A stretch of 51,217 nt of DNA from an uncultured Spirochaetia bacterium (GTDB lineage Bacteria; Desulfobacterota_D; UBA1144; Nemesobacterales; CSP1-2), in NCBI GenBank assembly GCA_964389705.1, contig CAYMEO010000005.1:1-51217 (forward strand), read 5' to 3'. Every line of letters begins with the position of its first letter. The first letter of the stretch is position 1. The translations under genes and the position numbers were made by a program. This document shows, piece after piece, positions 22,680 through 47,785 of this stretch. The notes beneath the pieces were generated by a model. That model worked only from the letters and a program-made list of their open reading frames with translations. It searched no databases and had not been told where the DNA came from.

Positions 22680-22696
22680 TGGTAGTTATATAGCAG

Positions 22697-25561: not shown

Positions 25562-25653
25562 CTTCGGTAACCCAGCCGCCATAGATTGCCCGCGCAATCT
25601 TTAGGCCGAAGGTTTTGCGCCCCATCCTTTTGGATGGTTTGCCTTTGTCGGTT
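25562..25653 (-). ncRNA. c-di-GMP-I (GEMM-I) riboswitch aptamer
   Basis: Minus strand reads ACCGACAAAGGCAAACCAUCC-AAAA-GGAUGGGGCGCAAAACCUUCGGCCUAAAGAUUGC-GCGG-GCAAUCUAUGGCGGCUGGGUUACCGAAG. It aligns position by position to the GEMM-I consensus (GGCAAACC, CGCAAA, CCUAA/UAUGG receptor, GGGUUACCGA). Confidence 0.9.
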
Positions 25654-25812
25654 AGAGACAACCATCTTGTAATTGTGTAATTCAGATACCTTTATGCACA
25701 AGGCTTTTCTATTTATTACACAAGAATAATCTATTGTCAAATAAGCTTTCTAAATTTTGGATATATTCTGAATCATTGCCATTCTCTTAGTGTAATGCAC
25801 TATTGGATTAAT

Positions 25813-26739: not shown

Positions 26740-26803
26740 AGCTAATCACCTAAATACAAAAATATATCGTTGCCATATCATCCAGTCTCGACATCTCCAC
26801 ACC

Positions 26804-28117: not shown

Positions 28118-28127
28118 AGAGATTGAC

Positions 28128-30072: not shown

Positions 30073-30096
30073 ATTATCTCCACAGTTGTAATGTTG

Positions 30097-30136
30097 ATTA
30101 TAAATTGGCAGTTTGACACTCTCCTGACTAAAGTCA
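30097..30136 (-). promoter_or_regulatory. Putative activator-dependent promoter: perfect -10 plus a palindromic box abutting -35
   Basis: TATAAT at 30102-30097; no -35 consensus at N17 (AGGAGA); TGACT-TT-AGTCA palindrome at 30136-30125, centred near -40.5. Confidence 0.55.
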
Positions 30137-30314
30137 AGGAGATTCCCAGGCAACCTCAAAATAGTTTGAGGTTAGCGCCTGACGGTTGTGCCCCAACCGA
30201 TTGTTTCATATTCTATTAAGTTTAGCTTTCTGTATCTCCGAGTTAAAACTCTGGAGTTTTAGAAAACAGGATTCTGATAAGATGGTGTTTGGGTACCTTT
30301 CATAAAAGGGAACC

Positions 30315-32003
30315 TTAAAAAAGCAGTCGCGGTATCTCCTCATCAGATTTTATAGTCACTAGTTTTTGCTCACGTATAAGCCTTTGCCCCATATTTATAA
30401 GAAACTCTTTAAACCTCTTTCGACGCGACTCAGGGTCGGTTCTGATTATTTTAATCGCGATGTGCACAGGCCGCATTCTCAACACAAGCCAAAGAAAACG
30501 CATCAATAGCAGCGGTTCGCGCAGTAGGCCGTCCCGCAACTGCCAGCGTAGCACCGGCACGAGAAGACCAGCCAATTCTAAGGGAATACGCAAGGGTTGA
30601 TTCTCTTGTGTCAATCGGCGAATTCGTATATGCAACAACGTATTATCGCGCGGCAACCTGATTCGAAAATAAACCAACATGAGTGGCAAGGCGAGATCAT
30701 TCTCAATGGCTTCTGCAATAGCCTTTTTGGATACGACCTCTTGAAAGGCAGACAGCCGAATCGAGCCTATATACTGCCCCATGGATTCAACCGCACAAAT
30801 TAGCTGCTCAACACCCTCCTGTACCTTCACATCCTCGATGGGAAAGTCAATATTTATGCGAACCTTGTGCGTAGTTCCGATGGTAATTGGCTGTTTGAGA
30901 TCCGCTATATTGGCGATCAATCGCTCGATGTGGAGGATAGTCTGTTTAGCCAAATCCGCTACTTGTGACTGAGCTTCTAACGCTGAAAGAAAGGCATTGA
31001 GCCGTATCGCTAAAGTTGGCCATAGTATTGGCCAATCTTTAGATGTGCAATTGGCAGCAAGGGGTATGTATTTGAAAAGGCATGTGGCAACTTCGAGGGG
31101 ATTGAGGTTTGGAGCACGCACCTTCTCAAGGAATTGTAGCAGTGGTCTGGCATCCTCACCTCGGACGATTTTATGACTGACAGGCCACAAGGAGTGTCGG
31201 TAAAATTCCTCGGATAGACCATTAGAGGACAGACCATTGGCATAATCAGGGTGTGGGAATCGAACCCGGGGATCCCGGTCATGTCCACGCCGAATAACAG
31301 TCAGTCCATCGACGAGGATGCGTTCGGCATTCGAAGAGGCAGAGCCCGGTCGCATTCGGTAATATGCCAACACTTCAGGTATGTTACCGAATCGGGCACC
31401 TGTGCGTGCAACGCGCTGCCAAAAGTCCCAATCCGCACAGGTAACAAGACCTGTATCGAATTCTCCGATCTCCTGTACCAGTGAGCGCCGCACTACACAG
31501 TTAAGGAGAGCAAAAGGGCAATCCTTAACAAACTCTGGGAAGAGATTACTTAGTAGCGATTGTGTATAGACTGATGCGGGACCGTACTGGCCGGACGGCG
31601 TTACTCGAACGCAACCGCATACCACAGCGTCGAGCTTAGGGTCTTTTGCAATTTGTTTCGCCATACGTTCAAGGTACTGCGGAGCAAGCCAATCGTCTGA
31701 ATCGAGAAAAACCAACCAGTCGTTTCTTGCGGCTCGAATACCTGTATTTCGTGCAGCACTCTCTCCGCCATTACTCTGACGAATCACGCGGAATCGGTTA
31801 TCTCTTTGAGCCCAACTGTAGGCGATGGTTGCAGTGCTGTCTGTTGAGCCGTCATCGACAATGATCGCCTCCCACATTGGAAAGGTCTGGGTTCTTAAGC
31901 TGGCAAGGGTCTCATCCAGCGTATCTGCAGCATTATACGCAGGTACAACTACAGAAAAATGGATTTTAGACATTTTTCTTTTGAATTTTGACAGCACTTG
32001 CAT
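30315..32003 (-). CDS. Glycosyltransferase family 2 with long C-terminal extension
   Basis: FSVVVPAYN, VDDGSTD, FLDSDDW, CADWDFW. Alternative start at 31973. Confidence 0.88.
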   Translation of the reverse strand: MQVLSKFKRKMSKIHFSVVVPAYNAADTLDETLASLRTQTFPMWEAIIVDDGSTDSTATIAYSWAQRDNRFRVIRQSNGGESAARNTGIRAARNDWLVFLDSDDWLAPQYLERMAKQIAKDPKLDAVVCGCVRVTPSGQYGPASVYTQSLLSNLFPEFVKDCPFALLNCVVRRSLVQEIGEFDTGLVTCADWDFWQRVARTGARFGNIPEVLAYYRMRPGSASSNAERILVDGLTVIRRGHDRDPRVRFPHPDYANGLSSNGLSEEFYRHSLWPVSHKIVRGEDARPLLQFLEKVRAPNLNPLEVATCLFKYIPLAANCTSKDWPILWPTLAIRLNAFLSALEAQSQVADLAKQTILHIERLIANIADLKQPITIGTTHKVRINIDFPIEDVKVQEGVEQLICAVESMGQYIGSIRLSAFQEVVSKKAIAEAIENDLALPLMLVYFRIRLPRDNTLLHIRIRRLTQENQPLRIPLELAGLLVPVLRWQLRDGLLREPLLLMRFLWLVLRMRPVHIAIKIIRTDPESRRKRFKEFLINMGQRLIREQKLVTIKSDEEIPRLLF

Positions 32004-33792
32004 AAAACCCCTTCATATACCTTCTGTTCTTAGGATCGGTCTTAGCTCTGTACTCTCTAATTGTAATTGCTAGTTTCAGACACAACCGCTTTAGAGGTGA
32101 ACGTATTCCAATTGAAGAAATAATTGTTTGTCCGGCCATGGCGAGTTTCCAACGGAGCCTCCATCCCACATCAGACCTCAGAATCTCGATCCTTGGAATC
32201 TGATAAGGATTTTGAAAGGGCATCACGCAACCGGCTGTTACTGTAAACGCAGCCTGTATGCCAGCTTCCTGTACAGCTTTTTCCACCCTCTCGTCACTTT
32301 CACCGTGGGGATAGGCAAAAAGCCGTGGTCGCGGTAGCCCAATTGTTTCTAGATCTGTTAGCGACCCCCCCACTTCTTCGGCCAATTCTTCAGTCGGGAC
32401 CTGGGTGAGAGGGCGATGTGTCTTAGAATGAGAGCCAATCTCAACTCCCCCGGCTGATAATTCCTTCAGGCCGTTGGCATCGAGCAATCGAATTTGCTTA
32501 GCCCCAATCATTTTATCCCAGTCATTCATTTCACCCAAACGTCCACTTACGGCAAAAGCGACCGCCGGTATGCCCTGCTTCTTAAGTATAGGCAACGCGA
32601 CCTTTAAGATGTCCTCAAAACAGTCATCGAATGTTAGCAATAATGGTTTTCGCGGCAGACCACCATTTCCATTTAAAAAACGCAAAAACTCATCAGTTGT
32701 TACAAATCTATAGCCGGACTTTTGAAGTGTATCTATCTGCCGGAGAAACAACCCTTCTGGTACCCCGTATTGCTCGAGTATAGAACATCCCGAGAGATCC
32801 GATATCGAGTGATAGGCTAAGACCCTTAGGGGCTGAGGTTTCGGTATCCCTCCGGCCTCACGCACTCCACGCCAGTATTCCAAGTCCCGCCCCCGGAAAA
32901 ACAACCTCGTTGTGATAGCGTTTTGAATCCCCATATTTACTAGAGCGAGCAAGAGCCAAGATGTCAGACGCCACAAGACCCGCTCGATTAAGGACCCGGC
33001 AGGGTGGGCTGCAAAGATATCATTGATAAGATCGGGGTGCTTCCGTACAAGAGCTATATCTGCACGCCCCGCCTGTCGCCACTGGCGCAGGTAATCAATC
33101 GGGGTAACTACGTACTTCTGCCAGCTAATGGCATTTGGGTTGAAGACGATACGATATCCTTTGAGTTTGAGACGGTAGCAAAAATCGAGGTCCTCATCCC
33201 CAAACGAGCCATTGCGGTTGAAATTTGTGTCGAACCCACCGAGCTTATGAAAGACCTCAAATGATAAGGAAGCCTGTCCGGTAATCATATCATGAATGGT
33301 CGGGGTTGCATTTGGAGACGACAGCCGCTTAACCCTTTTCTCAGCCCAAATGCCGACCCCGACGCTCAGGAAGTTTGAAGGCGATTCGGGATGCAATGGA
33401 ATGTGTCCAAGAACAATATCAGCTCCCTCTCGGTGAGACCGGTTGTGCTCTGCCAAGAGACGTGGATGGGCTTCCATGTCGTCGTCCAGAAAGAGTAAAA
33501 TTTCCCCATGAGCAACATCGGCACCACGGTTCAGAGCCGTAGCCCTACCCTTGTTTTGTTGTTCAATCACCGTCATGGGAAAGGGGACATTGATTTCTCG
33601 GAGGGCTTGGGCTGTGCCGTCTGTTGAGCCGTCCACCACCACAATGACCTCGAAGTGGCCGTCAAATTCCTGTCTTACCAAAGAACGCACCGATGCCAAT
33701 ACAAGCTCTCGCCTTTGGTAGGTTGGAATAATTACACTAAATCTCACAGATTTGTCTTTACTAATATCCCGCATCAATCTGAGATCATTCAT
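31966..33792 (-). CDS. GT2 - CE4 polysaccharide deacetylase fusion protein
   Basis: N-terminal GT2 (SVIIPTYQR, VDGSTD, FLDDDM, DEDLDF); C-terminal CE4 (LAYHSI, LTFDDC, GSHSKTH, FAYPHG). Confidence 0.9.
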   Translation of the reverse strand: MNDLRLMRDISKDKSVRFSVIIPTYQRRELVLASVRSLVRQEFDGHFEVIVVVDGSTDGTAQALREINVPFPMTVIEQQNKGRATALNRGADVAHGEILLFLDDDMEAHPRLLAEHNRSHREGADIVLGHIPLHPESPSNFLSVGVGIWAEKRVKRLSSPNATPTIHDMITGQASLSFEVFHKLGGFDTNFNRNGSFGDEDLDFCYRLKLKGYRIVFNPNAISWQKYVVTPIDYLRQWRQAGRADIALVRKHPDLINDIFAAHPAGSLIERVLWRLTSWLLLALVNMGIQNAITTRLFFRGRDLEYWRGVREAGGIPKPQPLRVLAYHSISDLSGCSILEQYGVPEGLFLRQIDTLQKSGYRFVTTDEFLRFLNGNGGLPRKPLLLTFDDCFEDILKVALPILKKQGIPAVAFAVSGRLGEMNDWDKMIGAKQIRLLDANGLKELSAGGVEIGSHSKTHRPLTQVPTEELAEEVGGSLTDLETIGLPRPRLFAYPHGESDERVEKAVQEAGIQAAFTVTAGCVMPFQNPYQIPRIEILRSDVGWRLRWKLAMAGQTIISSIGIRSPLKRLCLKLAITIREYRAKTDPKNRRYMKGFYASAVKIQKKNV

Positions 33793-33811
33793 AACCCTGG
33801 AATTTCATTAG

Positions 33812-34576
33812 TTACCTTCTTTGATCATAAATTAACAACGGCTTAACGGCCCTCACCGTGATTAAGACCTCATAAGCAGGGTCATAGAAATCGAGCTCTT
33901 CCTGACAAAATTCTCTAGCTGCAAGCCCCTGCAGAAACGCGATTGCCGACAGCACATTCCCATAGGCTTCTACCTTAACATTATCTGCTGGGAAAAATTC
34001 CTCAAACAGCCGTCGCGATGATAGGCTCGTGAAACTCCAACACTGATAATCACCCCACTTGTCGCTTGCAATCTGGCTGATGCCTGAAAATGTGGCTAGC
34101 ACCACCCCACCTGGTTTCAAAATACGGTAGATTGTCCCGATAGCAGCTTTCACATCATAGATAAATTGGAGCGTCTGCGTCAGTATTAAACAGTCGAATG
34201 TATCCGATGGTATGTGGTAGGCTTTTGTCAGGTCACCGACGAATGTGGCAATTGGATTCCCTTCAGAAATATGAAGTACATCTCTGGTATTTACCCTATC
34301 TCCGCCAAATCGCTTGGTATATGAATCGTCTCCAATCTCTAGCACACGTCCTCTAATATCATCGGCATGCCGGGCGAGAAAATTCTCGATGTAGTAGCGG
34401 TCAATAGGCAGACCGCGATCAAATCCAAACTCACGGCTGATTGGTGTTACCCGTCGTAGGCTACCAAAATCCACTGTTCCAACCGGATAACGATACGCCT
34501 GCCATTGACTTCTTAACCAGCGCCATTGATTTTCCAACCAGCGCTGTGTACGTGTTGCTAATTTGTGGTACCCCAT
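33812..34576 (-). CDS. Class I SAM-dependent methyltransferase-like protein
   Basis: FGFDRGLPIDRYYIE, VLEIGD, FDCLILTQTL, RILKPGGVVL. Confidence 0.8.
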   Translation of the reverse strand: MGYHKLATRTQRWLENQWRWLRSQWQAYRYPVGTVDFGSLRRVTPISREFGFDRGLPIDRYYIENFLARHADDIRGRVLEIGDDSYTKRFGGDRVNTRDVLHISEGNPIATFVGDLTKAYHIPSDTFDCLILTQTLQFIYDVKAAIGTIYRILKPGGVVLATFSGISQIASDKWGDYQCWSFTSLSSRRLFEEFFPADNVKVEAYGNVLSAIAFLQGLAAREFCQEELDFYDPAYEVLITVRAVKPLLIYDQRR

Positions 34577-34623
34577 CAGTCAAGATAGTCTTTATACACA
34601 GAATAATTTCGCGATACCAACAT

Positions 34624-35562
34624 CTAAGACTCCGTGAGCAATGTCCTCACTGCTCGCTTCACTGGTTTTTTTATTTGTTCAACGAGATTACCGGGGAGTT
34701 TTGACAACCTGTACAGGTGCGGATGCTGGTATGGCCAGAAAGCCCTTCGCAGTGCCTTCCAGATATTGATGTCTCTAATCTCTTGTTCAGTCAGATATGC
34801 CTCCAGCCATTTTAGAAAAAACAGTCTAATCTCATCATGGAATTGACTCGTCCTCGCCATACAGGAGTATGGATGTATTCTATATCGGTCCCAACACTCG
34901 CCAGCTGCAAACACAGGCGCACTGAGATACACCTTGATCAAAAACGCTTGATCTTCGTATAATTGGTACATACCCCGAAAGTCTTCTTCAAATCCTCCTA
35001 TATTTTCCACAGTCTCACGACGCAACAGTATATTAGAGGGGCAAGGAGCGGTACCTTCTCCTAATGGGTGGCAGAGAATGGCCAACTTTGGCGGATTGAA
35101 CACGGTATTGGTCTGAACACCAAGTTCTGGTATAAAGTCTCGTTTAGCATCTTCGGGTTTACCTGTCCAGCTATTCCAATATTCACTGGCTCCATAGACC
35201 ATAGCGACTTCGGGATGTGAACCTATGATTTCCACTTGTCGCTCCAGTTTATGTGATAACCAGACATCATCGGCGTCTAAAATAGCGATATACTCACCTT
35301 TAGAATAGCGAATACCTAGATTGCGTGAAACGCATACCCCGTGATTCTGATGCCCCTCGTGTTCGAGATAGTGAATCTTTCCGGGATACAGTTCAGCATA
35401 CCGTCGGGCAATTGATGTGCTCCCATCATCTGATCCGTCATCTACTAGGAGTAGTTCCCAGTATTCGTAAGTCTGTGCAAGCACACTCTCAATGGTTTCT
35501 TTTATGAACCTTTCGGCATTCAAGAAGCTAACAATAACAGAGACAAGGGGTTTTCTATTCAT
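34624..35562 (-). CDS. Glycosyltransferase family 2 (paralogue 2 of 3)
   Basis: PLVSVIVSFLN...VDDGSDD...ILDADDVW...YEDQAF. Confidence 0.9.
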   Translation of the reverse strand: MNRKPLVSVIVSFLNAERFIKETIESVLAQTYEYWELLLVDDGSDDGSTSIARRYAELYPGKIHYLEHEGHQNHGVCVSRNLGIRYSKGEYIAILDADDVWLSHKLERQVEIIGSHPEVAMVYGASEYWNSWTGKPEDAKRDFIPELGVQTNTVFNPPKLAILCHPLGEGTAPCPSNILLRRETVENIGGFEEDFRGMYQLYEDQAFLIKVYLSAPVFAAGECWDRYRIHPYSCMARTSQFHDEIRLFFLKWLEAYLTEQEIRDINIWKALRRAFWPYQHPHLYRLSKLPGNLVEQIKKPVKRAVRTLLTES

Positions 35563-35674
35563 ATCTATAAGAAGAGAATTAAATTGAAAAGCCCATTAAA
35601 GCTACCGGATTATAGAACAATTATATTCCGGAGCCATCTAGCAAACATACACAATCTTTAGATCTTAAGTACCC

Positions 35675-36661
35675 TTATTTAAATGCCTGCCATACCGTTC
35701 GTAGCCAGCACCTAAGAGAAATGGGTAACGTCCGCTTCGCTATAAAAATCATTAGCCCGTGCCACTGGATCGGATTGAAAAAATGGCGGTAAATTTCTAA
35801 CAAACGATTTAGAGTCGGATAACGATAGGGCCATTTGGCCTTTCGAAGAGATTTCCATACCTCAGGATCCTTTACCCCCTGTTTTGATAAATACTCCTCT
35901 ACCCAGTTCAAATAAAATAAGCGATCAGCGTAAAATCGTCCCTCTTCCCATGAAATGTCAGTGTAAGAATCCCAATGACTCCTATATCTATACCAACACT
36001 CACTAGACACAAACACTGCCGAAGTAAGGCATATCTTGACGAGAACAACGGCATCCTCATACATACCACGAAAAACCTCTTCATATCCGCCTACACTTTC
36101 TAATACATTACGTCGTACCATTATACCGCCAGGTATGAAAAATTCGTCCCGTAGGAATAGGTTAAGCAACGCCGGTGGCTTAACTAGCGAGTTACTGTAC
36201 GGATGCACACCATTACGATTTACACCCATGAGATGGTCACGCTTATTATACTCAGGATTACCCAGCCAACTGTACCATACCTGAAGAGGTCCATAAACCA
36301 TGGCGGCTTCAGGTTGTGATTCCAGAATTGCCACCTGTTGTTCTAATTTGTGGGGTAACCAGACATCATCACCATCCAAGAAGGATATGTACTCGCCCTT
36401 GGCATTATGAAAACCCAAATTGCGTGAAGCACTCATGCCGAGATTTCGATGGCCATCATGCTCCAGATAACGCACTTTTTCAGGGTATTTCTCTGCATAA
36501 CGTCTAGCAATTGCAGTGCTACTGTCTGTTGAGCCGTCATCCACAAGCAAAAGTTCCCAATTGTCATAAGTCTGTGCGAATACACTCTCTATGGCTTCCT
36601 GTATGAACTTCTCCTCATTCAGAAAAATAATAATTGCAGATACTAACGGCTTGATGCTCAT
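35675..36661 (-). CDS. Glycosyltransferase family 2 (paralogue 1 of 3)
   Basis: PLVSAIIIFLN...VDDGSTD...FLDGDDVW...YEDAVV. Confidence 0.9.
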   Translation of the reverse strand: MSIKPLVSAIIIFLNEEKFIQEAIESVFAQTYDNWELLLVDDGSTDSSTAIARRYAEKYPEKVRYLEHDGHRNLGMSASRNLGFHNAKGEYISFLDGDDVWLPHKLEQQVAILESQPEAAMVYGPLQVWYSWLGNPEYNKRDHLMGVNRNGVHPYSNSLVKPPALLNLFLRDEFFIPGGIMVRRNVLESVGGYEEVFRGMYEDAVVLVKICLTSAVFVSSECWYRYRSHWDSYTDISWEEGRFYADRLFYLNWVEEYLSKQGVKDPEVWKSLRKAKWPYRYPTLNRLLEIYRHFFNPIQWHGLMIFIAKRTLPISLRCWLRTVWQAFK

Positions 36662-36708
36662 CTCGTCTCACTAGAACTAAAATGCCACTTGGGACTCGGC
36701 CTCTATAG

Positions 36709-38028
36709 TTAAAGATCGCCGACTTTGAATTCATTTAAGCGTGATTGGGTAGTCCATTTTAACATTGGTCTCACAATACCCCCCATATCTCCGGCATAAT
36801 CACCGCGTGCTGAATCTCCATCAAAATTGTCGATAACCTGAAAAGCAACTGCATCGCATTCATCAAATTGAGGGATAACAGGGTCAATCGTATCGAGACC
36901 AGCATGGACAAAAAACATTCCCTCAGAGAGTAGATTGCCGGGAATCCATACTGTGCTCACATATAAACCTTTCGGACGAGGTCGCCGCCGCCAAGTCGGG
37001 TCGAGATCGTGAGATACAAAGACAAGCACACCTTCTTCATTGTAAAAGGCAAAATGCGGCATAAGCGCATAACCAGGCTTGAGAACTTCATATTCCATCT
37101 CAACTCTGAGGGATTGCCTGATATCAACTGCGTCAATTATATGCCCCTCCTCTGACCTCACCCGTACAGCATGTAAACGAACGATTTCGCCTTGGGGCGA
37201 CTTATCACGGTCGGGCCATATTCGCTCGGCAGTCGTACTGATTCCTGAACTCAAGTACAAGCTGACAACTCGATGAGATGGTCCGTCTTCTAAGATTCTG
37301 CCCTCTTTAATGAGGATTGCTCTTTCACAAAGACGAGTAATAGCAGCCATACTGTGTGATACAAACAACACCGTCCGCCCTTCCTTAGCCACGTCACCCA
37401 TTTTTCCCAGGCACTTCTTCTGAAACGCGGCATCCCCTACTGCCAAGACTTCATCCACAATCAGAATCTCCGGCTCTAGGTGAGCCGCTACAGCAAAGGC
37501 CAGGCGTACGTACATGCCGCTAGAATAGTGTTTTACCGGTGTATCCAGGAATCTCTCAACCTCAGAGAAGGCTACGATCTCATCGAACCTGCGGTCAATC
37601 TCTGCCTTCTTCATACCGAGTACGGCGCCACTCAGATATATGTTTTCCTTTCCTGTTAGCTCAGAGTGGAAACCGATGCCGACTTCAAGGAGTGAACCTA
37701 CCCTGCCATAAATGTCGGCGTAACCCTCTGTTGGCTCGGTGATACGGGCGAGGATTTTGAGTAATGTGCTCTTACCAGCGCCGTTAGATCCAATGATGCC
37801 GACAACCTCACCACGCTTAACCTCGAATGAGACGTCTTTTAATGCCCAGATGATGCCATTGGGCTGCTCATTGCCGATTGCTGATTGCCCATTTACGAAT
37901 TGCGAAAGCCATCGGAAAGGGGTATACACCGCCTCGGATAATGCGTCGCGCAAGGCATTGTAGCGCTTGGGCTGTCCGATGCGGTATTGCTTACCCAGAT
38001 TTTCAGCACGAATAGCAATGTTGCCCAT
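36709..38028 (-). CDS. wzt: Polysaccharide ABC exporter ATP-binding subunit with C-terminal Wzt-C domain
   Basis: GSNGAGKS, YSSGMYVRLAF, IVDEVLAVGD, VSH, then a ~170-aa beta-rich C-terminal domain. Start set at 38028 (MGNIAIRAENLGK), since the track's 38220 overlaps wzm. Confidence 0.92.
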   Translation of the reverse strand: MGNIAIRAENLGKQYRIGQPKRYNALRDALSEAVYTPFRWLSQFVNGQSAIGNEQPNGIIWALKDVSFEVKRGEVVGIIGSNGAGKSTLLKILARITEPTEGYADIYGRVGSLLEVGIGFHSELTGKENIYLSGAVLGMKKAEIDRRFDEIVAFSEVERFLDTPVKHYSSGMYVRLAFAVAAHLEPEILIVDEVLAVGDAAFQKKCLGKMGDVAKEGRTVLFVSHSMAAITRLCERAILIKEGRILEDGPSHRVVSLYLSSGISTTAERIWPDRDKSPQGEIVRLHAVRVRSEEGHIIDAVDIRQSLRVEMEYEVLKPGYALMPHFAFYNEEGVLVFVSHDLDPTWRRRPRPKGLYVSTVWIPGNLLSEGMFFVHAGLDTIDPVIPQFDECDAVAFQVIDNFDGDSARGDYAGDMGGIVRPMLKWTTQSRLNEFKVGDL

Positions 38029-38033
38029 CGCCC

Positions 38034-38864
38034 TTACAGTATATCCGCAAATGTTCTCTCCATACGCCGAAAGTACAGAAGGCCCCCAACAAGGAGTACA
38101 GTGACTGCCAGTACCGAAACAGCCATTGGCATCCCTATCCCTCCGCCTTTGCCCAACAAGGCCCAGCGGAACCCTTCCACCACCCCAGCCATAGGGTTTA
38201 ACCCGTATAAAATACGCCATGCCTCAGGCACCAGGCTGCTGGGGTAGGCAACGGGTGTTACGAAGAGCCAGAACTGTGTCAGAAAAGGTATCGTGTAGTG
38301 CACGTCGCGGTACTGCACATTTAGGGCTGACAGCCATAAGCCCACAGCCAGAGCCGTAGCAATAGCAAACAGTATGATAAATGGCAGCGCCAGAGCAGCC
38401 GTTGTTGGAACAACGCCGTAGTAGAACATCATACCAAGCAAAACCAAGAATGATATACCGAAATCGACTAACCCAGCCAGTACTGCCGATATGGGAATGA
38501 CCAGGCGCGGGAAATAAACCTTTGTTATAAGTCCCTGGTTCGACACCAGACTGTTTCCAGATGTAGTTAATGCATTGGTAAAGAGCTGCCACGGGAGAAG
38601 CGCACAGTATGCAAAAATCGGATACGGAATTCCATCGGATGGTACCTTAGCCAACTTTCCAAAGAAGATGCTGAATACAACCATTGTCATAAAAGGCTGC
38701 AGAATTGCCCATGTAACACCGAGTACTGTTTGTTTGTAGCGCACCTTCATATCGCGCCAGACTAGGAAATATAGGAGCTCACGGTATTCCCACAGGTCTT
38801 TGAGCCTGAGTGATACCCAACCACGCGATGGGCGAATAGTCAAATGAGGCACTGTCTCAAGCAC
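38034..38864 (-). CDS. wzm: Polysaccharide ABC-2 exporter permease
   Basis: RDMKVRYKQTVLG, LITKVYFPR, TPVAYP, LNPMAGVVEGFR. Confidence 0.92.
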   Translation of the reverse strand: MLETVPHLTIRPSRGWVSLRLKDLWEYRELLYFLVWRDMKVRYKQTVLGVTWAILQPFMTMVVFSIFFGKLAKVPSDGIPYPIFAYCALLPWQLFTNALTTSGNSLVSNQGLITKVYFPRLVIPISAVLAGLVDFGISFLVLLGMMFYYGVVPTTAALALPFIILFAIATALAVGLWLSALNVQYRDVHYTIPFLTQFWLFVTPVAYPSSLVPEAWRILYGLNPMAGVVEGFRWALLGKGGGIGMPMAVSVLAVTVLLVGGLLYFRRMERTFADIL

Positions 38865-41268: not shown

Positions 41269-41685
41269 TCATTTAGACCCCTTCCCGGATTGAGATTTTG
41301 GTTCTGGTGTCTGAACTAACCCCTGTCCCATATTCGGACTCGGGGAGCTTTGCGATATAGGAGGGATTGATGATTGGTTCTTCTTAGGAGGAACCACCAA
41401 CTCCTGATTAGTCGGTGGTCCAGATTCTTCTATTACCGAAGACCTTATGCCCTTTGCAGAGAAATATCCGAGTGAGAGCGATGTGACTATAAAGACAACG
41501 GCGAGAACCCGTGTGACCTTAGTAAGAAATGGAACCGCACCGCTTGCTCCAAAGATCGATTGACTTGACCCTCCAAATATAGTTCCCAGGTCGTCGCCCT
41601 TCCCAGGCTGAAGGAGAACCGTAATGATAAGAAGGATACTTACGATGATATGAATCGCCTTTATGGCTATTATGATTATGCCCAA
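41269..41685 (-). CDS. secG: Preprotein translocase subunit SecG
   Basis: VLLQPGKGDDLG..FGGSSQSIFG..G...FLTKVT; TTG start; position after tpiA. Confidence 0.9.
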   Translation of the reverse strand: MGIIIIAIKAIHIIVSILLIITVLLQPGKGDDLGTIFGGSSQSIFGASGAVPFLTKVTRVLAVVFIVTSLSLGYFSAKGIRSSVIEESGPPTNQELVVPPKKNQSSIPPISQSSPSPNMGQGLVQTPEPKSQSGKGSK

Positions 41686-41690
41686 TTGAC

Positions 41691-42443
41691 CTATTCTCCT
41701 GCTAACTGAACTATTTTTGTGAAAGAGTCGGCTTCGAGGCTTGCTCCACCTACCAATGCGCCGTCTATATCGGGAGGGGAAAGTAGATCTTTTATATTCG
41801 CCGGGGTTACACTTCCACCATATAGAATCCTCACACCATCTGCGACTCTACCAAAGTTACTCTTCAGCCTCTCTCGAATGAACCCATGAACCTCCTCGGC
41901 TTCTTCTGGCGTGGCATTTCTTCCGGTCCCAATTGCCCATACAGGCTCATAGGCAATTGTGATTTTATCGGGGTTATCTAGACTCAGGCCTCTAAGACCG
42001 TTTTCTATCTGGCTCTCTATCACCCTCATCGTCTTTCGATTTTCCCTCTCTTCAAGGGTCTCGCCCACACACAATATCGGAATAAGCCCCGAACTGAGCG
42101 AGGCCATGACCTTTTTGCATACCATATCGTCGGTCTCACCCAATATGCCTCTCCTTTCCGAATGTCCAATAATTACCCACCTACAGCCAACGTCAATAAG
42201 CATATACGGAGAAATCTCACCTGTAAATGCTCCTGAGTTCTCCCAGAAGACATCCTGAGCGCCGAGGTCTATGTCGGTGCCCCGAATTATCCTATATACA
42301 GCATCGAGTGATGTATATGGGGGGGCTATTACAACGTCTACGCCACTCGAACTGATAGTCTCACAGAGCCTTCGGGCAAGATCTGTCGCCTCTTGCCTCA
42401 ACATATTCATCTTCCAATTTCCAACAATAAGCCTTTTTCTCAT
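41691..42443 (-). CDS. tpiA: Triosephosphate isomerase
   Basis: GNWKMN, GHSERR, AYEPVWAIGTG, YGGSV and LVGGASL all intact. Confidence 0.97.
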   Translation of the reverse strand: MRKRLIVGNWKMNMLRQEATDLARRLCETISSSGVDVVIAPPYTSLDAVYRIIRGTDIDLGAQDVFWENSGAFTGEISPYMLIDVGCRWVIIGHSERRGILGETDDMVCKKVMASLSSGLIPILCVGETLEERENRKTMRVIESQIENGLRGLSLDNPDKITIAYEPVWAIGTGRNATPEEAEEVHGFIRERLKSNFGRVADGVRILYGGSVTPANIKDLLSPPDIDGALVGGASLEADSFTKIVQLAGE

Positions 42444-43636
42444 TTAAACCTCTTCTCCAGGGCCTCAAGTGCAGGGAGCCTCCTTTCTCCAACAAATTCG
42501 AGACTTGCCCTACCACCTGTAGAGAGATAAGTAATTCCCGATGAATAGCCCGTTTTTTTAATCGCCAAAACGGTATCCCATCCTGAGGCCACACTAAAAG
42601 CACCCGATGCTGCTACGGCTTCAGCCACTGCCTTTGTTCCCTCTATAAAATCCTCGTTCTCGTAAATGCCAAGAGGCCCATTCCAAAATATGGTCTTTGC
42701 CCTTGCGAGCCTCAGAGCAAAATCATCCCGCGTTTTTGGTCCAATGTCTACTGCCATTCCATCCTTAGAAAATACCCCGGCAGGGGTCGCAAATGGAGCA
42801 GAGTAGTTGCTTAAATCACCCCTTATGGCTATAAAGTCCTGAGGAAGAACTACTCTAACGCCTCGCGCTCTCGCAGAGGAAATAAATCTTGACGCGCTGT
42901 ATAAAGCAATATCATCTACAACAGATTTTCCTATCTCTTTCCCAAGAGCCTTGAGGAAGATATTAGATACCGCTCCTCCGACTAGAATTGCATCTACCTT
43001 GTCTAGGAGTCTCTCCATAATCGGAATCTTCTCTTCTGCACTCCGACCACCAAATATAGCTATAAAGGGATATTGAGGATTTTCAATAAGCGGTGTTAGA
43101 TTTTTAATCTCATTTTTAAAACCAAGCCCTACACACGCTGTCTCAATAAAATCCAATATGCCAACAACCGATGCATGAGACCTGTGAGAGACAGAAAACG
43201 CCTCATTTACATAAACATCGGCTACCTGGGCAAGTCTCTTTGCAAACTTAGGGTCGTTTTCTTCCTCCCCCTTATGAAACCTCAGATTCTCAAGAAGCAT
43301 AATACCGCCCGGAGCAAGGTCTCCTGCGATCTTCTTTACCACATCCCCTATGCAATCTTCAGGGAAGAATATCTCACGCTTGAGAATCTCTGAGAGCCTC
43401 CTGCCCACAGGCTCAAGGGTGAGTTTGGGCCTCGGTTTCCCACCGGGCCTTCCAAGATGGGAGGCAATTATCACTCTTGCCCTTCCTCTAGACGCATATT
43501 CAATCGTATGTAGAGCAGCAAATATTTTTGTATCGTCTGCAACTTGGCCACTGACAATTGGGACATTGAAGTCAACCCTTATAAAGACCCTTTTTTCTTT
43601 TATATCCAATTCGTCTATGGAAATTAAATTCATCAC
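42440..43636 (-). CDS. pgk: Phosphoglycerate kinase homologue with degenerate nucleotide-site motifs
   Basis: RVDFNVP, SHLGRP, LLENLRF and WNGP present, but DxTRI->DDTKI, GGAK->GGRS, GGGM->GGAV, GGGD->SGWD and STGGGA->STGGRA (four of the five re-read from the DNA; GGAV taken from the ORF track). Confidence 0.85.
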   Translation of the reverse strand: MMNLISIDELDIKEKRVFIRVDFNVPIVSGQVADDTKIFAALHTIEYASRGRARVIIASHLGRPGGKPRPKLTLEPVGRRLSEILKREIFFPEDCIGDVVKKIAGDLAPGGIMLLENLRFHKGEEENDPKFAKRLAQVADVYVNEAFSVSHRSHASVVGILDFIETACVGLGFKNEIKNLTPLIENPQYPFIAIFGGRSAEEKIPIMERLLDKVDAILVGGAVSNIFLKALGKEIGKSVVDDIALYSASRFISSARARGVRVVLPQDFIAIRGDLSNYSAPFATPAGVFSKDGMAVDIGPKTRDDFALRLARAKTIFWNGPLGIYENEDFIEGTKAVAEAVAASGAFSVASGWDTVLAIKKTGYSSGITYLSTGGRASLEFVGERRLPALEALEKRFK

Positions 43637-43639: not shown

Positions 43640-44782
43640 TTATATTTTATCCTTAACGTATTTCCCCAATCTCCTGATTCCCTCATCTATGTTCTCAAGG
43701 GATGTTGTGTAAGAGAATCTAAGGTACCCCTCGCCTCCGTATCCAAAATCAATCCCAGGGGTTACAGCAACAAGGGATTTCTCAAGTATGTCAAATGCAA
43801 GTTCATAAGATTTATCGCCTAATTTCCTTGAATTGACAAAAACATAGAATGCCCCTTTAGGCTCGCAATTAATCTCAAACCCCAAGTCTTTAAGTCCCTC
43901 GATCATTTTCATTCTTCTTTGATTAAATATCTGAACCATCTCTTTTGCCATTGATTTAGCACCCTTGAGCGCCGCAACTCCAGCCCTCTGCACAAATGAA
44001 TTTGGTGATATAAAGAGGTTTTGCTGTATCTTCTGAATAGGACGAATAAAATCAGTAGGGGCAATAAGATACCCGAGTCTCCATCCAGTCATTGAGTAGA
44101 GCTTAGAGAATCCATTAACCGAAAATGCTCTATCCGTAAATTCATAAATCGTATGTGCATCTCCCTCATAAACAAGCCCATGATATATCTCATCAGAGAT
44201 CACGTAAACACCGAGTTCAGATATTTCATTCATTACACGAGGCTCAAGAACCACTCCTGTAGGATTTGATGGAGAGTTTATTACAATTGCCTTTGTCCTC
44301 TGTGAGATTGCCCTTTTAATTCTATCTACGCTAATCTGAAAGCCTTCCTCTTCATATATTCTGACCCGCTTCGGTATACCGCCCGCTATTTTTATAATCT
44401 GGGGATAGCACGAATAGTGTGGGTCTGTAATTATAATCTCATCTCCCGGCTCAATAAGAGATACCATTGAGAGAAACAAAGCAGGAGAGCTACCAGATGT
44501 AACAATAACCCTATCGGGAGAAATATCTACCCCGTACTTTTCCTTGTAATCCTGAGCGATAGCGTATCTTAGCTCCGAAATTCCTAGGCTGTGTGTGTAT
44601 TTCGTATCCCCTTTTCTGATAGCATCTATAGCCTCATCGCATACAATAACTGCTGTGGGAATATCGGGCTCTCCAATTTCAAAATGAACCACGCTCTTGC
44701 CCTGAGACTCAATCTCTTTAGCGCGCTCCAAAACATCCATTACATAAAAAGGAGCCAATCCCTCAGAAAGCTTAGACGGCAT
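43640..44782 (-). CDS. PLP-dependent aminotransferase class I/II (AspC/AspB-like)
   Basis: GEPD, NSPSNPTG, SDEIY, GFSKLYSMTGWRLGY. Start set at ATG 44782. Confidence 0.92.
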   Translation of the reverse strand: MPSKLSEGLAPFYVMDVLERAKEIESQGKSVVHFEIGEPDIPTAVIVCDEAIDAIRKGDTKYTHSLGISELRYAIAQDYKEKYGVDISPDRVIVTSGSSPALFLSMVSLIEPGDEIIITDPHYSCYPQIIKIAGGIPKRVRIYEEEGFQISVDRIKRAISQRTKAIVINSPSNPTGVVLEPRVMNEISELGVYVISDEIYHGLVYEGDAHTIYEFTDRAFSVNGFSKLYSMTGWRLGYLIAPTDFIRPIQKIQQNLFISPNSFVQRAGVAALKGAKSMAKEMVQIFNQRRMKMIEGLKDLGFEINCEPKGAFYVFVNSRKLGDKSYELAFDILEKSLVAVTPGIDFGYGGEGYLRFSYTTSLENIDEGIRRLGKYVKDKI

Positions 44783-44832
44783 AATATTACTTATTCTAAG
44801 CAAAAAGGCCATGATTGTCTACTAAAATAGAC

Positions 44833-44909: not shown

Positions 44910-45182
44910 ATGGAAGATAACGAAAAGATAATTAAAAGACTAAAGAACATAGAGGGTCATATCCGTGGGATTCAAAAGATGATAGAAGAGGATAAATACT
45001 GCATAGATATTATAAAACAGACACTCGCCGTAAAGAGCGCGGTGGATAAGGTAAACGCCCTCATTCTTAAGCGCCACCTCGAGAGTTGTGTCACTACCGC
45101 CATAAGGTCAAACAAACAGACCGATAGAGAGCGCATAATATCTGAGCTTCTCGATGTTTTTGAGACATCGGGGAAGATCTGA
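44910..45182 (+). CDS. csoR: Copper-sensing repressor, CsoR/RicR family
   Basis: RLKNIEGHIRGIQKMI..KYC..I..Q..A...HLESC: Cys-His-Cys Cu(I) ligand set. Confidence 0.92.
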   Translation: MEDNEKIIKRLKNIEGHIRGIQKMIEEDKYCIDIIKQTLAVKSAVDKVNALILKRHLESCVTTAIRSNKQTDRERIISELLDVFETSGKI

Positions 45183-45190
45183 TTATTGAT

Positions 45191-45218
45191 GTAGAGGCAA
45201 TTCATGAATTGCCTCTCC
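45191..45218. repeat. GTAG-tagged REP-like palindrome
   Basis: GT-AGAGGCAATTCA|TGAATTGCCTCT-CC: perfect 24-bp palindrome (45193-45216) beginning with GTAG. Confidence 0.6.
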
Positions 45219-45310
45219 TTCTCCGCCGTACACAGGGAAGATCGAAATGAGTAATTCCTTCAAGGGAAAGAAAACACATAAGGTTTTTATTGTATCAGGA
45301 GATATAAATA

Positions 45311-47785
45311 ATGAAAACTGAAAAAATAGACCTACCGATAAGCGGGATGAGTTGCACCTCATGCGCTGCTGCAATTGAGTCCGAAATCAAAAAGATAGAT
45401 GGGGTCTTAGATGCGAGTGTAAACTTCGGGATAGAAAAGGCATCTGTAACTTTCGACACGGAGATAGCAAAAACGGAGGATCTCATCAAGGCAATAAGAG
45501 ATACAGGATATGAGGTAGTTACTCAGAAAGTGACCATCCCTATAAGGGGTATGCACTGCGCATCGTGTGTGGAAACCATTGAGACAACTCTGCGAGGGAT
45601 AGAAGGAGTCGTTTCTGCAAATGTGAATTTCGGAACTGAGAAGGCCGCAGTGGAGTTTATCCCAGACAAGGTTTCGTTATCTGACATCAGGCGTGCAATC
45701 AGAGAATCCGGGTATGAGCCGCTTGATGCAGAAGAGGGGAAAAAAGCTCATGAGAGAGAAATAAGGACACTGAGAAACAGACTCGTATTCAGCGCCGCAG
45801 TCAGCCTAATTGTGTTTATGGGAGGTATGAATGAGTGGTTTCCGTGGATGCCCAATATACTTAAAAATTGGGTTACACTTTTTATCCTTACAACCCCAGT
45901 CCAGTTCTGGGCAGGATGGGAGTTCTATAAGGGTGCATGGTCTGCCTTAAAGCACAGACGCACTGATATGAATACCCTCATCGCATTAGGCACAAGCGCT
46001 GCATATCTCTATAGCGTTATTGTAACCTTCCTTCCCAGTGTCTTCCTAAGAGGCAGAATTGAACCCGCTACTTATTATGATACATCGGCAATAATCATCT
46101 CTCTCATTCTCCTTGGAAGATTTCTTGAATTGAAAGCAAGGAGTAAAACAAATGAGGCCATAAAGAAACTCATCAGCCTTGGAGCAAAGACCGCAAGCGT
46201 GATTAGAAACGGAGAAGAAATGGACATCCCTGTGGAAGAGGTTCGGGTCGGAGACATTGTAGTTGTACGCCCGGGCGAGAAGATCCCAGTAGATGGAATT
46301 ATACAAGAAGGCTACTCGACTGTTGATGAATCAATGATTACTGGGGAGCCAATTCCATCAGAAAAGAAGGTAGGCGATAAAGTAATCGGCGCAACGATTA
46401 ATAGAACCGGCTCATTTAAGTTTAGGGCTACAAGCGTAGGAAAGGATACTGTGCTTTCTCAAATCATAAAACTCGTTGAAGAGGCTCAAACCTCTAAAGC
46501 CCCAATTCAAAGGATCGCCGATATAATCGCTTCATACTTTGTTCCAGTAGTAATCGGGATAGCCGTTCTTACTTTTATAGTCTGGTACTTCTTTGGTCCC
46601 TCCCCTGCATTTACTTATGCCTTCTTAAATTTCATTGCGGTTCTTATTATCGCCTGCCCGTGCGCACTGGGACTTGCAACGCCCACCGCAATCATGGTCG
46701 GAACCGGAAGAGGCGCAGAAAACGGCATCCTAATAAAAAACGTCGAAGCTCTTGAGACAGCACACAAGATAAAGGCGATTGTATTTGATAAAACGGGAAC
46801 ACTTACGAAAGGAAAACCCGAAGTCACAGGTATAATAACGAACGGTGAATTCTCTAAAGATGAAATTCTGAGGATTACAGCAAGCGCGGAATCTAGTTCC
46901 GAGCATCCACTTAGTGAGGCTATTGTTAAACATGCTAAAGAGAAGGGGCTCGATATAAAAGACCCTGAAAGGTTTAGTGCTATACCTGGGGAAGGAATCG
47001 AGTCTACGGTAGACGGACACAGGGTATTGGTAGGAAATGTAAGACTCATGAACAGTAAAGGAATTGATGTGAGCCATCTCAAAAACATGGCTGAGGAACT
47101 CGCAGGCGAAGGCAAGACCCCTGTGTTTGTATCTATAGATAATAAAGCGGCAGGAATAATTGCAGTTGCAGATACACTCAAGCCTTATTCTCTTGAAGTG
47201 GTTCAATCAATTAAAAACCTCGGTATAGAAGTAATTATGATTACGGGAGACAACCGTCGTACGGCTGAAGCCATTGGTAAGAAATTGGGCATTGACCGTG
47301 TCTTTGCCGAAGTGGCTCCTCAAGACAAAGCAAATGAAATAAAGAGACTCCAAGAGGAGGGAAAGACAGTGGCAATGGTAGGAGATGGAATAAACGATGC
47401 CCCTGCACTTGCACAAGCCGATTTAGGAATAGCAATCGGAGCCGGAACAGACATTGCAATTGAATCCGGAGATATAATCCTCATCGGAGACGATTTAAGA
47501 GGCGTGATTACAGCAATAGAACTGAGCAGAAAGACAATAAGCACGATAAAGCAGAACTTCTTCTGGGCATTTCTCTATAACGCTCTTCTTATTCCACTGG
47601 CAGCCGGAGTGCTCTATCCGTTTTTTGGAATCCTGCTCAATCCAATCTTAGCCGCTGCCGCAATGGCACTCAGTTCCGTATCCGTTGTAACCAACAGTTT
47701 GAGATTGAAGAGGTTTAAAACGAAGTTGGGATTTACGAAAGGGGAAATCTCATCTGAACTGCATCCTGTAGAAGCAGGTAGTTAA
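45311..47785 (+). CDS. copA: Cu(I)-translocating P1B-type ATPase
   Basis: Two HMA domains (GMSCTSC, GMHCASC), [23 protein letters not shown] and MALSS. Confidence 0.96.

What the first reader, a model, noticed from the sequence alone, without database searches (positions are those of the whole stretch)
42440..43636. PGK homologue with systematically destroyed ATP-site motifs but a largely preserved phosphoglycerate site: candidate pseudo-enzyme
Seen: full length with no frameshift and coupled to an intact tpiA (4-nt overlap). N-domain DFN, SHLGRP, LRF and HR are kept, but the catalytic Arg (DxTRI) is Lys, GGAKVxDK is GGRSAEEK, GGGM is GGAV, GGGD is SGWD and STGGGA is STGGRA. Known: these Gly-rich loops and the GGAK Lys bind the nucleotide phosphates and are nearly invariant in PGKs; Trp/Arg in place of Gly should obstruct the site. 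Inference: a non-catalytic metabolite sensor or scaffold, or an enzyme with a changed phosphoryl donor, kept in the glycolytic operon.
Basis: partly seen in the sequence, partly recalled or inferred. Interest (0 to 1): 0.75.

Follow-up and report, generated by a model that had tools for sequence, protein, structure and literature searches.

The report
Dadabacteria-wide PGK with rebuilt active site
The only phosphoglycerate-kinase gene in this operon belongs to a conserved, selected family found across the candidate phylum Dadabacteria in which the residues that hold the transferred phosphate have been replaced, so an abundant bacterial group may run central carbon metabolism without a normal PGK, or with a rewired one.

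Summary
ORF 42440-43636(-) is a full-length PGK (Pfam 411 bits; AF2 model TM 0.92 to T. maritima PGK) and overlaps an intact tpiA by 4 nt. Mapped to human PGK1, four of the five groups that hold the transferring phosphoryl are changed: R38K, K215S, G373W, G396R. Only K219 is kept. A214, which lines the adenine cleft, is Arg. The 3-PG pocket and the ribose, Mg and alpha/beta-phosphate ligands are intact, so "ATP site destroyed" overstates it: the transfer centre is what was rebuilt.

This is not an assembly artefact. About 35 relatives (61-100% identical, named Ca. Dadabacteria) share the changes. dN/dS is about 0.12, the same as tpiA. A sister group from marine Dadabacteria, in the same gene order, has also lost the 3-PG-binding arginines. 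All variants form one clade (bootstrap 97-100). In every Dadabacteria locus an AspAT-like aminotransferase sits where gap sits in canonical relatives.

My best reading (0.4) is a PGK-derived protein that no longer does normal ATP-dependent catalysis and binds 3-PG. A rewired but active PGK (0.3) and a new enzyme activity (0.2) stay open. I could not test whether a second canonical pgk or a gapdh lies elsewhere in these genomes.

The parts
42440..43636 (-). PGK-like gene, 398 aa from GTG 43636. The likely real start is ATG 43633, giving 397 aa.
   Evidence: ORF. Pfam PF00162 at 411 bits over residues 7-382. Best solved structure is 1vpe at 4.8e-102. AF2 pLDDT 95.3, TM 0.92 to 1vpe.
43523..43534 (-). 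DTKI. Lys37 stands in place of the transition-state Arg (human R38).
   Evidence: This position is Arg in 25 and Lys in 10 of 35 group-A sequences.
43445..43462 (-). SHLGRP, carrying the 3-PG phosphate ligands (human H62, R65). Retained.
   Evidence: Conserved in 35/35 group-A sequences; lost in group B.
43169..43207 (-). NEAFSVSHRSHAS. H169/R170 are retained. G166->Ser148 and D->Glu145 are family-specific changes.
43028..43051 (-). GGRSAEEK in place of GGAKVxDK. A214->Arg198 (adenine cleft), catalytic K215->Ser199, K219 = Lys203 retained.
   Evidence: Residue roles from PMC2441801 and PMC5594045.
42569..42589 (-). ASGWDTV in place of xGGGDS/T. G371->Ser351, G373->Trp353, D374/T375 retained.
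   Evidence: Trp is present in 33/35 group-A sequences.
42503..42523 (-). STGGRAS in place of STGGGAS. G396->Arg376.
   Evidence: Group A has K27, R4, N2, Q2 at this position.
41691..42443 (-). tpiA with an intact catalytic set. Its ATG overlaps the PGK-like stop (ATGA).
43640..44812 (-). Class I/II (AspAT-like) aminotransferase occupying the position that gap holds in canonical relatives. Its stop lies 3-6 nt before the PGK-like start.
41269..41685 (-). secG, the last conserved member of the pgk-tpiA-secG string.

Best explanation
The gene is the Dadabacteria orthologue of pgk. It sits in the ancestral pgk-tpiA-secG position, but its phosphoryl-transfer centre was rebuilt in the ancestor of the phylum. 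The catalytic Lys (human K215) is lost. A Trp and a Lys/Arg have been placed in the two glycine loops whose backbone NH groups normally grip the transferring phosphate. A bulky residue now occupies the adenine-cleft Ala.

The protein still folds as a two-domain PGK and is under selection as strong as that on tpiA. I judge it most likely that it no longer carries out efficient ATP-dependent 3-PG/1,3-BPG phosphotransfer. In the window's branch it survives as a 3-PG-binding protein, a pseudo-enzyme acting as sensor or partner, co-translated with the aminotransferase and TPI.

Shown: the substitutions, their conservation, the selection, the synteny and the fold. Inferred: the loss of catalysis and the ligand-binding or partner role.
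For: 1. Four of the five groups that contact the transferring phosphoryl in the human transition-state complex are altered. Those groups are K215, R38, G373 NH, K219 and G396 NH (PMC5594045).
2. K215 is described as an essential catalytic residue (PMC2441801). R38M lowers kcat about 10^7-fold. Changes at G166 (G166D) and in loop 214-219 (V216F) lower kcat 15-fold and 47-fold (PMC6040698).
3. The positions that replace K215 and its neighbours vary within the clade: 198 is R/L/W, 199 is S/N/G/Y/I/K, 376 is K/R/N/Q. New catalytic residues would not be expected to vary like this.
4. The sister group occupies the identical gene order yet has lost N25, R65, R122, H169 and R170. It cannot bind the 3-PG phosphate but is still under purifying selection. 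The family therefore has a selected role that does not need PGK chemistry.
5. About 15 residues are new and are conserved in both groups, for example C168, F173, Y246, S254 and F347. This indicates a shared new constraint.
6. gap is absent from the operon in all Dadabacteria loci but present in 13 of 16 canonical outgroup loci.
7. Published KEGG-Decoder glycolysis scores for Dadabacteria MAGs are only 0.33-0.67 (PMC8115339 Suppl. Table 2).
8. The 3-PG pocket is invariant in 35/35 group-A sequences. dN/dS is 0.12-0.14 against 0.10-0.16 for tpiA.
Against: - No activity data exist.
- In group A both substrate pockets look largely usable. The 3-PG ligands and K219, N336, P338, E343, D374 and T375 are all 35/35.
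- Every group-A sequence keeps at least one new cationic side chain (Arg198 and/or Lys/Arg376) next to the transfer centre. This could replace K215.
- It is the only PGK homologue seen in the operon and in the 51-kb window. The genome also carries glpD and an intact tpiA, which normally feed a GAPDH/PGK step.
- The partner or sensor role is pure inference. No interaction evidence was obtainable.
Confidence: 0.4

Rival explanations
1. Rewired but active PGK. The catalytic positive charge has moved from K215 to Lys/Arg376 in the GGG loop and/or to Arg198. This is comparable to WNK protein kinases, where the catalytic Lys moved to the glycine loop (my own knowledge). Under this reading the enzyme still interconverts 1,3-BPG and 3-PG with an adenine nucleotide.
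For: - The 3-PG pocket and the nucleotide ribose, Mg and phosphate ligands are 100% conserved in group A.
- All 35 group-A sequences have a cation at 198 or 376. Whenever 376 is N/Q, 198 is Arg.
- The gene keeps the ancestral operon position and is translationally coupled to an intact tpiA.
- Purifying selection equals that on tpiA.
- No other pgk lies in the window.
Against: - The 198/376 pattern is not statistically significant. Four N/Q cases all falling among about 25 Arg198 sequences out of 33 has a chance probability of about 0.3 (my calculation).
- Positions 198, 199 and 376 vary, unlike catalytic residues.
- A Trp on the residue whose NH binds the transferring phosphate, and Arg/Leu/Trp in the adenine cleft at A214, are hard to reconcile with normal substrate geometry.
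- The orthologous group B has plainly abandoned 3-PG binding.
Confidence: 0.3
2. Neofunctionalised enzyme on the PGK scaffold. Either it uses a different phosphoryl donor (PPi, polyP or ADP), or it acts on a different carboxylate acceptor. Its function would be tied to the co-transcribed aminotransferase.
For: - The pair of changes, Gly->bulky/acidic at 373 and Gly->Lys/Arg at 396, recalls the Gly->Asp and Gly->Lys switches that separate PPi- from ATP-dependent phosphofructokinases (my own knowledge, an analogy only).
- In group B the basic 3-PG patch is replaced in a semi-conserved way: N25D 15/15, R38K 15/15, R122->E/D 13/15. This is not random decay.
- Aminotransferase, PGK-like and tpiA are joined by 4-nt overlaps across the whole phylum.
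- New residues are conserved family-wide.
Against: - No known PGK-fold enzyme has another activity.
- The adenosine and ribose ligands are still conserved, which argues against a nucleotide-free donor.
- The residues lining the altered centre vary within group A.
- The gene order could simply be inherited.
Confidence: 0.2
3. Artefact or decaying pseudogene: a sequencing or assembly error, or a recently inactivated pgk that is drifting.
For: None beyond the unusual residues themselves.
Against: - The same substitutions appear in about 50 independent sequences from NCBI, JGI, ENA and Logan assemblies.
- The reading frame is intact in all of them.
- dN/dS is 0.06-0.14.
- The AF2 model is confident.
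Confidence: 0.02

Closest known systems
Canonical bacterial phosphoglycerate kinase (EC 2.7.2.3), e.g. T. maritima PGK 1vpe and B. stearothermophilus 1php
   Same: Same Pfam family over the full length, 41-44% identity and the same two-domain fold (TM 0.90-0.92). The 3-PG pocket is the same, as are K219, N336, P338, E343, D374 and T375. The gene sits immediately upstream of tpiA-secG.
   Different: K215, G373, G396, A214, G371 and G166 are replaced, and in this sub-branch R38 as well. These positions are invariant in 78/78 close canonical relatives. gap is not upstream.
T. maritima PGK-TIM fusion / NCBIfam PRK13962 'bifunctional PGK/TIM'
   Same: Both the PGK-like protein (429 bits) and the TPI (315 bits) score best against this model. 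The two genes overlap, as pgk and tpi do in Thermotoga (the Thermotoga biology is my own knowledge).
   Different: These are two separate ORFs with an ATGA overlap and no fusion. Scores are far below the 883-bit cutoff. The Thermotoga PGK half has a canonical active site.
Trypanosomatid axonemal PGK-like protein (TbPGKL)
   Same: A PGK homologue that lacks key substrate-binding or catalytic residues, is predicted to be inactive, and is retained and expressed (PMC4106842).
   Different: It is eukaryotic and an extra paralogue alongside active PGKs, localised to the flagellum. It arose independently: the Dadabacteria clade nests among bacterial PGKs and occupies the ancestral operon slot.
Mycoplasma mobile MMOB4490
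   Same: A bacterial PGK homologue reported to lack the binding and catalytic residues (bioRxiv 10.1101/2024.06.11.597861).
   Different: It is a second copy beside the functional PGK MMOB4530. It is mentioned only in passing, and I did not compare the sequences.
WNK kinases and PPi-dependent phosphofructokinases (analogies for mechanism, from my own knowledge)
   Same: In both, apparently 'dead' or altered phosphotransferase sites turned out to reflect a relocated catalytic Lys (WNK) or a switch of phosphoryl donor through Gly->Asp/Lys changes (PPi-PFK).
   Different: These are unrelated folds. I cite them only to show that the substitution pattern does not by itself prove inactivity.

Membership tests
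Phosphoglycerate kinase (PF00162; EC 2.7.2.3) | Full-length PGK domain by profile HMM | tested here: met
   PF00162 at 411 bits, residues 7-382 of 398 matching profile positions 1-376 of 379.
Phosphoglycerate kinase (PF00162; EC 2.7.2.3) | Two Rossmann-like domains joined by a helix (PGK fold) | tested here: met
   AF2 model with pLDDT 95.3 and pTM 0.90. Foldseek TM 0.92 to 1vpe at rmsd 2.0 over 394 columns. The model is MSA-driven, and canonical PGKs are in the MSA.
Phosphoglycerate kinase (PF00162; EC 2.7.2.3) | 3-PG binding residues D23, N25, H62, R65, R122, H169, R170 (human numbering) | tested here: met
   All are present in the window protein and in 34-35 of 35 group-A sequences. They are lost in the sister group B.
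Phosphoglycerate kinase (PF00162; EC 2.7.2.3) | Transition-state charge triad R38, K215, K219 | tested here: not met
   The window protein has K37, S199 and K203. K215 is absent in 34/35 group-A sequences. Roles from PMC5594045 and PMC6040698.
Phosphoglycerate kinase (PF00162; EC 2.7.2.3) | Glycine loops GGGD(S/T) and STGGGA, whose G373 and G396 NH groups bind the transferring phosphoryl | tested here: not met
   The loops read SGWDT and STGGRA. Canonical relatives have G at all three changed positions in 78/78 sequences.
Phosphoglycerate kinase (PF00162; EC 2.7.2.3) | Nucleotide-binding residues: adenine cleft A214/G238/L313/V341, ribose P338/E343, phosphates and Mg K219/N336/D374/T375 | tested here: inconclusive
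   A214 is replaced by Arg (group A: R27, L7, W1). All the others are kept or lie within canonical variation (roles from PMC2441801).
Phosphoglycerate kinase (PF00162; EC 2.7.2.3) | Curated NCBIfam equivalog score | tested here: inconclusive
   The only hit is PRK13962 (bifunctional PGK/TIM) at 429 bits against a cutoff of 883. That model is 645 positions long, so a stand-alone PGK cannot reach the cutoff.
Phosphoglycerate kinase (PF00162; EC 2.7.2.3) | gap-pgk-tpiA operon context | tested here: not met
   pgk-tpiA-secG is kept, but gap is replaced by an aminotransferase in the window and in all 15 or more Dadabacteria loci. Among canonical outgroups, 13/16 have gap upstream.
Phosphoglycerate kinase (PF00162; EC 2.7.2.3) | ATP:3-phospho-D-glycerate 1-phosphotransferase activity | not testable with these tools
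   This needs an enzyme assay or genetic complementation.
PGK-derived pseudo-enzyme (as in trypanosomatid PGKL and M. mobile MMOB4490) | Loss of residues required for catalysis, with retention of the fold and purifying selection | tested here: met
PGK-derived pseudo-enzyme (as in trypanosomatid PGKL and M. mobile MMOB4490) | A catalytically competent PGK elsewhere in the same genome | not tested
No second PGK-family ORF lies in the 51-kb window or in the +/-10 kb flanks of the Dadabacteria loci.
PGK-derived pseudo-enzyme (as in trypanosomatid PGKL and M. mobile MMOB4490) | Demonstrated absence of activity | not testable with these tools
   This is biochemical.

The most novel reading that the evidence does not exclude
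Dadabacteria, including the cosmopolitan marine clades, have no conventional GAPDH/PGK step. Their single PGK-fold protein has been re-purposed for new chemistry, working with the co-translated aminotransferase and TPI. That chemistry would be either a non-ATP phosphoryl donor or a different acyl-phosphate-forming reaction. This would be the first non-PGK enzyme activity on the PGK fold and a new layout of central carbon metabolism in a free-living phylum.
Probability: 0.2. Interest if true: 0.85.

Novelty: new variant of a known kind. Interest (0 to 1): 0.62.

Why it matters
PGK is among the most conserved enzymes known and is routinely scored as 'present' in metabolic reconstructions from HMM hits. 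NCBI and JGI label every one of these proteins 'phosphoglycerate kinase'.

If the Dadabacteria protein is inactive or does something else, published glycolysis and gluconeogenesis calls for a cosmopolitan marine and subsurface phylum are wrong at this step. The link between triose phosphates and 3-PG in these organisms would then need another explanation, such as GAPN/GAPOR, a methylglyoxal bypass, or split upper and lower metabolism.

If the protein is active, it is a natural experiment on the 'charge balance' model of phosphoryl transfer, because the catalytic Lys is gone and new cations sit in a glycine loop.

Either way the family offers graded natural variants on one scaffold. Group A keeps the 3-PG site and group B has lost it.

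Tried and rejected
1. Assembly error or pseudogene. Rejected on recurrence in about 50 sequences and dN/dS of 0.06-0.14.

2. An ancient paralogue that merely happens to sit next to tpiA. Rejected. The variant clade is monophyletic, confined to Dadabacteria-named assemblies, and occupies the pgk slot of pgk-tpiA-secG in all loci.

3. A second canonical pgk or a gapdh in Dadabacteria genomes. I could not test this.
- The genome-contig scan returns only 80 loci and was used for distribution.
- The look-up of encoding contigs gives only +/-10 kb.
- The names of the closest canonical hits were not informative.
- The eggNOG supplement of PMC8115339 is truncated alphabetically before the 'Belongs to...' annotations.

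4. Literature on Dadabacteria glycolysis. I found only KEGG-Decoder completeness fractions. Searches gave nothing relevant.

5. AF2 with the 21-sequence variant-only alignment gave a poor N-domain (pLDDT 75.8). I replaced it with a 146-sequence alignment.

6. Covariation between positions 198 and 376 as evidence for a relocated catalytic cation. The pattern exists but is not significant with 33 sequences.

7. Promoter and terminator scan of 40.0-45.4 kb. Counts were at shuffle expectation, with nothing inside the operon worth reporting.

8. Monophyly of group B. Unresolved (bootstrap 46-84), so I cannot say whether the 3-PG site was lost once or several times.
Full report
**What is there**

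The window has an uninterrupted 398-codon ORF at 42440..43636 on the minus strand, starting at GTG. An ATG one codon later gives the 397-aa form held in the protein database. It matches Pfam PGK end to end at 411 bits. Its best solved relative is T. maritima PGK at 4.8e-102. With a 146-sequence alignment AlphaFold2 gives pLDDT 95.3 and pTM 0.90, and the model superposes on 1vpe with TM 0.92.

Its TGA stop overlaps the ATG of tpiA as ATGA. tpiA has all its catalytic motifs and is followed by secG. Upstream, 3-6 nt away, lies a class I/II AspAT-like aminotransferase.

**Checking the observation**

The alignments to 1vpe and 1php, and a mapping to human PGK1 numbering, confirm the claimed substitutions. 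I validated the mapping by checking that R38, K215, K219, G373 and G396 fall where the literature places them.

| Human PGK1 | Window protein |
|---|---|
| R38 | K37 |
| A214 | R198 |
| K215 | S199 |
| V216 | A200 |
| D218 | E202 |
| G371 | S351 |
| G373 | W353 |
| G396 | R376 |

D23, N25, H62, R65, R122, H169 and R170 are kept. The 'GGGM->GGAV' item is weak, because T. maritima has GGAM and Bacillus has GGGL.

One point needs correcting. K219, N336, P338, G340, E343, D374 and T375 are all kept. These bind the ribose, Mg and the alpha/beta phosphates (PMC2441801). So the nucleotide site is not destroyed wholesale.

The changed residues are specifically those around the transferring phosphoryl. 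In the human transition-state-analogue complex that group is held by K215, R38, the G373 NH, K219 and the G396 NH (PMC5594045). Four of these five positions are altered here. In addition A214, which lines the adenine cleft (PMC2441801), is now Arg.

**It is a lineage feature, not an artefact**

A search of 5.8 billion proteins found about 35 clusters at 61-100% identity that share the changes. I call this group A. Its pattern is GG[R/L/W][S/N/G..]A.EK, xGWDT and GG[K/R/N/Q]A.

NCBI names members of it Candidatus Dadabacteria. GTDB species representatives that carry it include Dadabacteria ERB_12_1, CSP1-2 and nzgw197.

From about 50% identity downward the hits are canonical PGKs (GGAKVSDK, GGGDS, STGGGAS).

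Nei-Gojobori dN/dS for the window against its 89% and 84% relatives is 0.118 and 0.138. tpiA in the same genome pairs gives 0.157 and 0.099, and the aminotransferase gives 0.103.

**A more extreme sister group**

A second set of sequences, group B, has the transfer-centre changes as well. It comprises P0036-42, P0270-275 and loci L011, L012, L014, L015 and L088, plus the outliers P0127 and P0228. At residue 373 it carries Q, D or E.

Group B has also lost the 3-PG pocket:
- N25->D in 15/15
- R38->K in 15/15
- R65->N/G/E/K
- R122->E/D in 13/15
- H169->N/D
- R170->Q/K/L/M

One group-B cluster has 78 members, including proteins NCBI names Ca. Dadabacteria and annotates as 'phosphoglycerate kinase'. 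One member lies on a 2.46-Mb contig. Group B is also under purifying selection, with dN/dS of 0.06-0.11, although dS is near saturation.

In neighbour-joining trees all variants form one clade. Bootstrap support is 100/100, or 97/100 after removing 32 functional columns. Group A is monophyletic at 86-87. Whether group B is one clade is unresolved.

About 15 derived residues are conserved across both groups: E145, S148, C168, F173, M207, S209, Y246, S253, S254, F347, T355 and others. The family has therefore acquired new shared constraints and has not only lost old ones.

**Context**

Every Dadabacteria locus with enough flank has the same order, usually with 4-nt overlaps at both junctions of the PGK-like gene:

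aminotransferase - PGK-like - tpiA - secG - (TPR) - ferredoxin - HhH-GPD glycosylase

In the canonical PGK loci returned by the same scan, 13 of 16 have gap immediately upstream of pgk. So gap has been replaced by an aminotransferase in this phylum's operon.

No second PGK-family gene and no GAPDH is present in the 51-kb window. Published KEGG-Decoder scores give Dadabacteria MAGs only 0.33-0.67 of the glycolysis steps, and 0.44 in nearly all marine ones (PMC8115339 Suppl. Table 2).

**Interpretation**

Experimental work on human PGK1 shows how sensitive these positions are (PMC6040698):
- R38M lowers kcat about 10^7-fold.
- G166D lowers it 15-fold.
- V216F, in loop 214-219, lowers it 47-fold.

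K215 is called an essential catalytic residue (PMC2441801).

Three further facts bear on function. The replacement residues at 198, 199 and 376 vary within group A. The orthologous group B has abandoned 3-PG binding and is still selected. gap has left the operon.

Taken together, the most likely reading (0.4) is that the ancestral Dadabacteria protein stopped being a conventional PGK. In the window's branch it persists as a 3-PG-binding, catalytically disabled protein, co-translated with TPI and the aminotransferase.

I cannot exclude a rewired active PGK (0.3). Group A keeps both substrate pockets and always has at least one new cation (Arg198 and/or Lys/Arg376) beside the transfer centre. 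That is reminiscent of the relocated lysine of WNK kinases (my own knowledge). The 198/376 pattern is not statistically significant with 33 sequences.

A new enzymatic activity or a new phosphoryl donor (0.2) is suggested by three things:
- the semi-conserved acidic remodelling of the group-B pocket;
- the Gly->bulky/acidic plus Gly->Lys pair, which recalls the ATP/PPi switch in phosphofructokinases (my own knowledge);
- the phylum-wide coupling to an aminotransferase.

**Comparison with what is known**

Predicted-inactive PGK homologues are known in two cases. One is the trypanosomatid axonemal PGK-like protein (PMC4106842). The other is a passing mention of M. mobile MMOB4490 (bioRxiv 10.1101/2024.06.11.597861). 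Both are extra copies beside a working PGK.

This case differs in four ways:
- the variant occupies the ancestral operon slot across a whole bacterial phylum;
- it shows a graded series, with the 3-PG site kept in one group and lost in the other;
- it is accompanied by replacement of gap;
- public databases annotate it uniformly as PGK.

I found no paper describing it. I class it as a new variant of a known kind.

**Limits**

The key missing test is a census of PGK, GAPDH, GAPN and GAPOR across complete Dadabacteria genomes. I could not run it with the capped tools. The structure tool returns no coordinates, so the positions of Trp353, Arg376 and Arg198 relative to the ligands are inferred from the published roles of the backbone amides, not seen. 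The trees are distance-based.

Noticed in passing
window 20308-38864: About 18.5 kb holding some 14 GT2/GT4 glycosyltransferases, polysaccharide deacetylases, a methyltransferase and an ABC-2 exporter pair. It lies between the HhH-GPD glycosylase and the BPD_transp/ABC genes. In the 89%-identical relative (L001) those two flanks are adjacent. This looks like a strain-specific surface-polysaccharide island. Its G+C is higher (0.44-0.49) than the rest of the window (0.38-0.44).
   Followed up: partly
window 43640-44812 and all Dadabacteria loci (L001-L015, L088, L089): An AspAT-like class I/II aminotransferase occupies the gap position upstream of the PGK-like gene throughout the phylum, usually with a 4-nt overlap. 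Its best NCBIfam hit, PRK08960, falls below the cutoff, so its substrate is unknown.
   Followed up: partly
proteins P0142, P0164, P0169, P0183 (locus L091), P0193, P0200, P0217, P0240, P0246, P0252, P0265: Other PGK-family representatives outside the Dadabacteria clade also lack several catalytic or substrate residues. P0183 is likewise followed directly by a TIM gene. Degenerate PGK homologues may therefore have arisen repeatedly. All of these are on short metagenomic contigs of unknown origin.
   Followed up: partly
locus L009 (JBLNAE010000249.1, 3.6 kb): A contig binned as 'Ignavibacteriales' carries a PGK-like/tpiA/secG string 84% identical to the window. It is probably a Dadabacteria contig mis-binned into that MAG.
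   Followed up: no
proteins P0121, P0122, P0124, P0125: The representative library holds 560-1030-aa proteins made of two tandem PGK domains with canonical motifs. They could be real tandem fusions or gene-calling or assembly joins. In P0124 the second copy looks degenerate.
   Followed up: no
window 44910-47785 (+): A divergently transcribed CsoR-type metal-sensing repressor and a CopA-like P-type ATPase with two HMA domains lie directly upstream of the operon. This neighbourhood is conserved in several Dadabacteria loci (L002, L006, L089).
   Followed up: no
window 3737-5410 (-): A GlpD-type glycerol-3-phosphate dehydrogenase (NCBIfam PRK12266, 270 bits, below cutoff). It would feed DHAP to the intact TPI, which bears on how trioses are used if PGK activity is absent.
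   Followed up: no
window 28128-29231 / 29038-30159 and 31966-32003: Neighbouring ORFs in the glycosyltransferase island overlap by 194 nt and 38 nt. The causes could be mis-assigned TTG starts or a frameshift.
   Followed up: no
PMC8115339 Suppl. Table 5: An archaeal-type cofactor-independent phosphoglycerate mutase (apgM, K15635) is annotated in CSP1-2, which carries a group-A protein, and in GCA-007571325.1 of the same clade. So 3-PG is probably a metabolite in the branch that keeps the 3-PG pocket. The table is truncated, so I could not check whether apgM is absent from the marine clades.
   Followed up: partly
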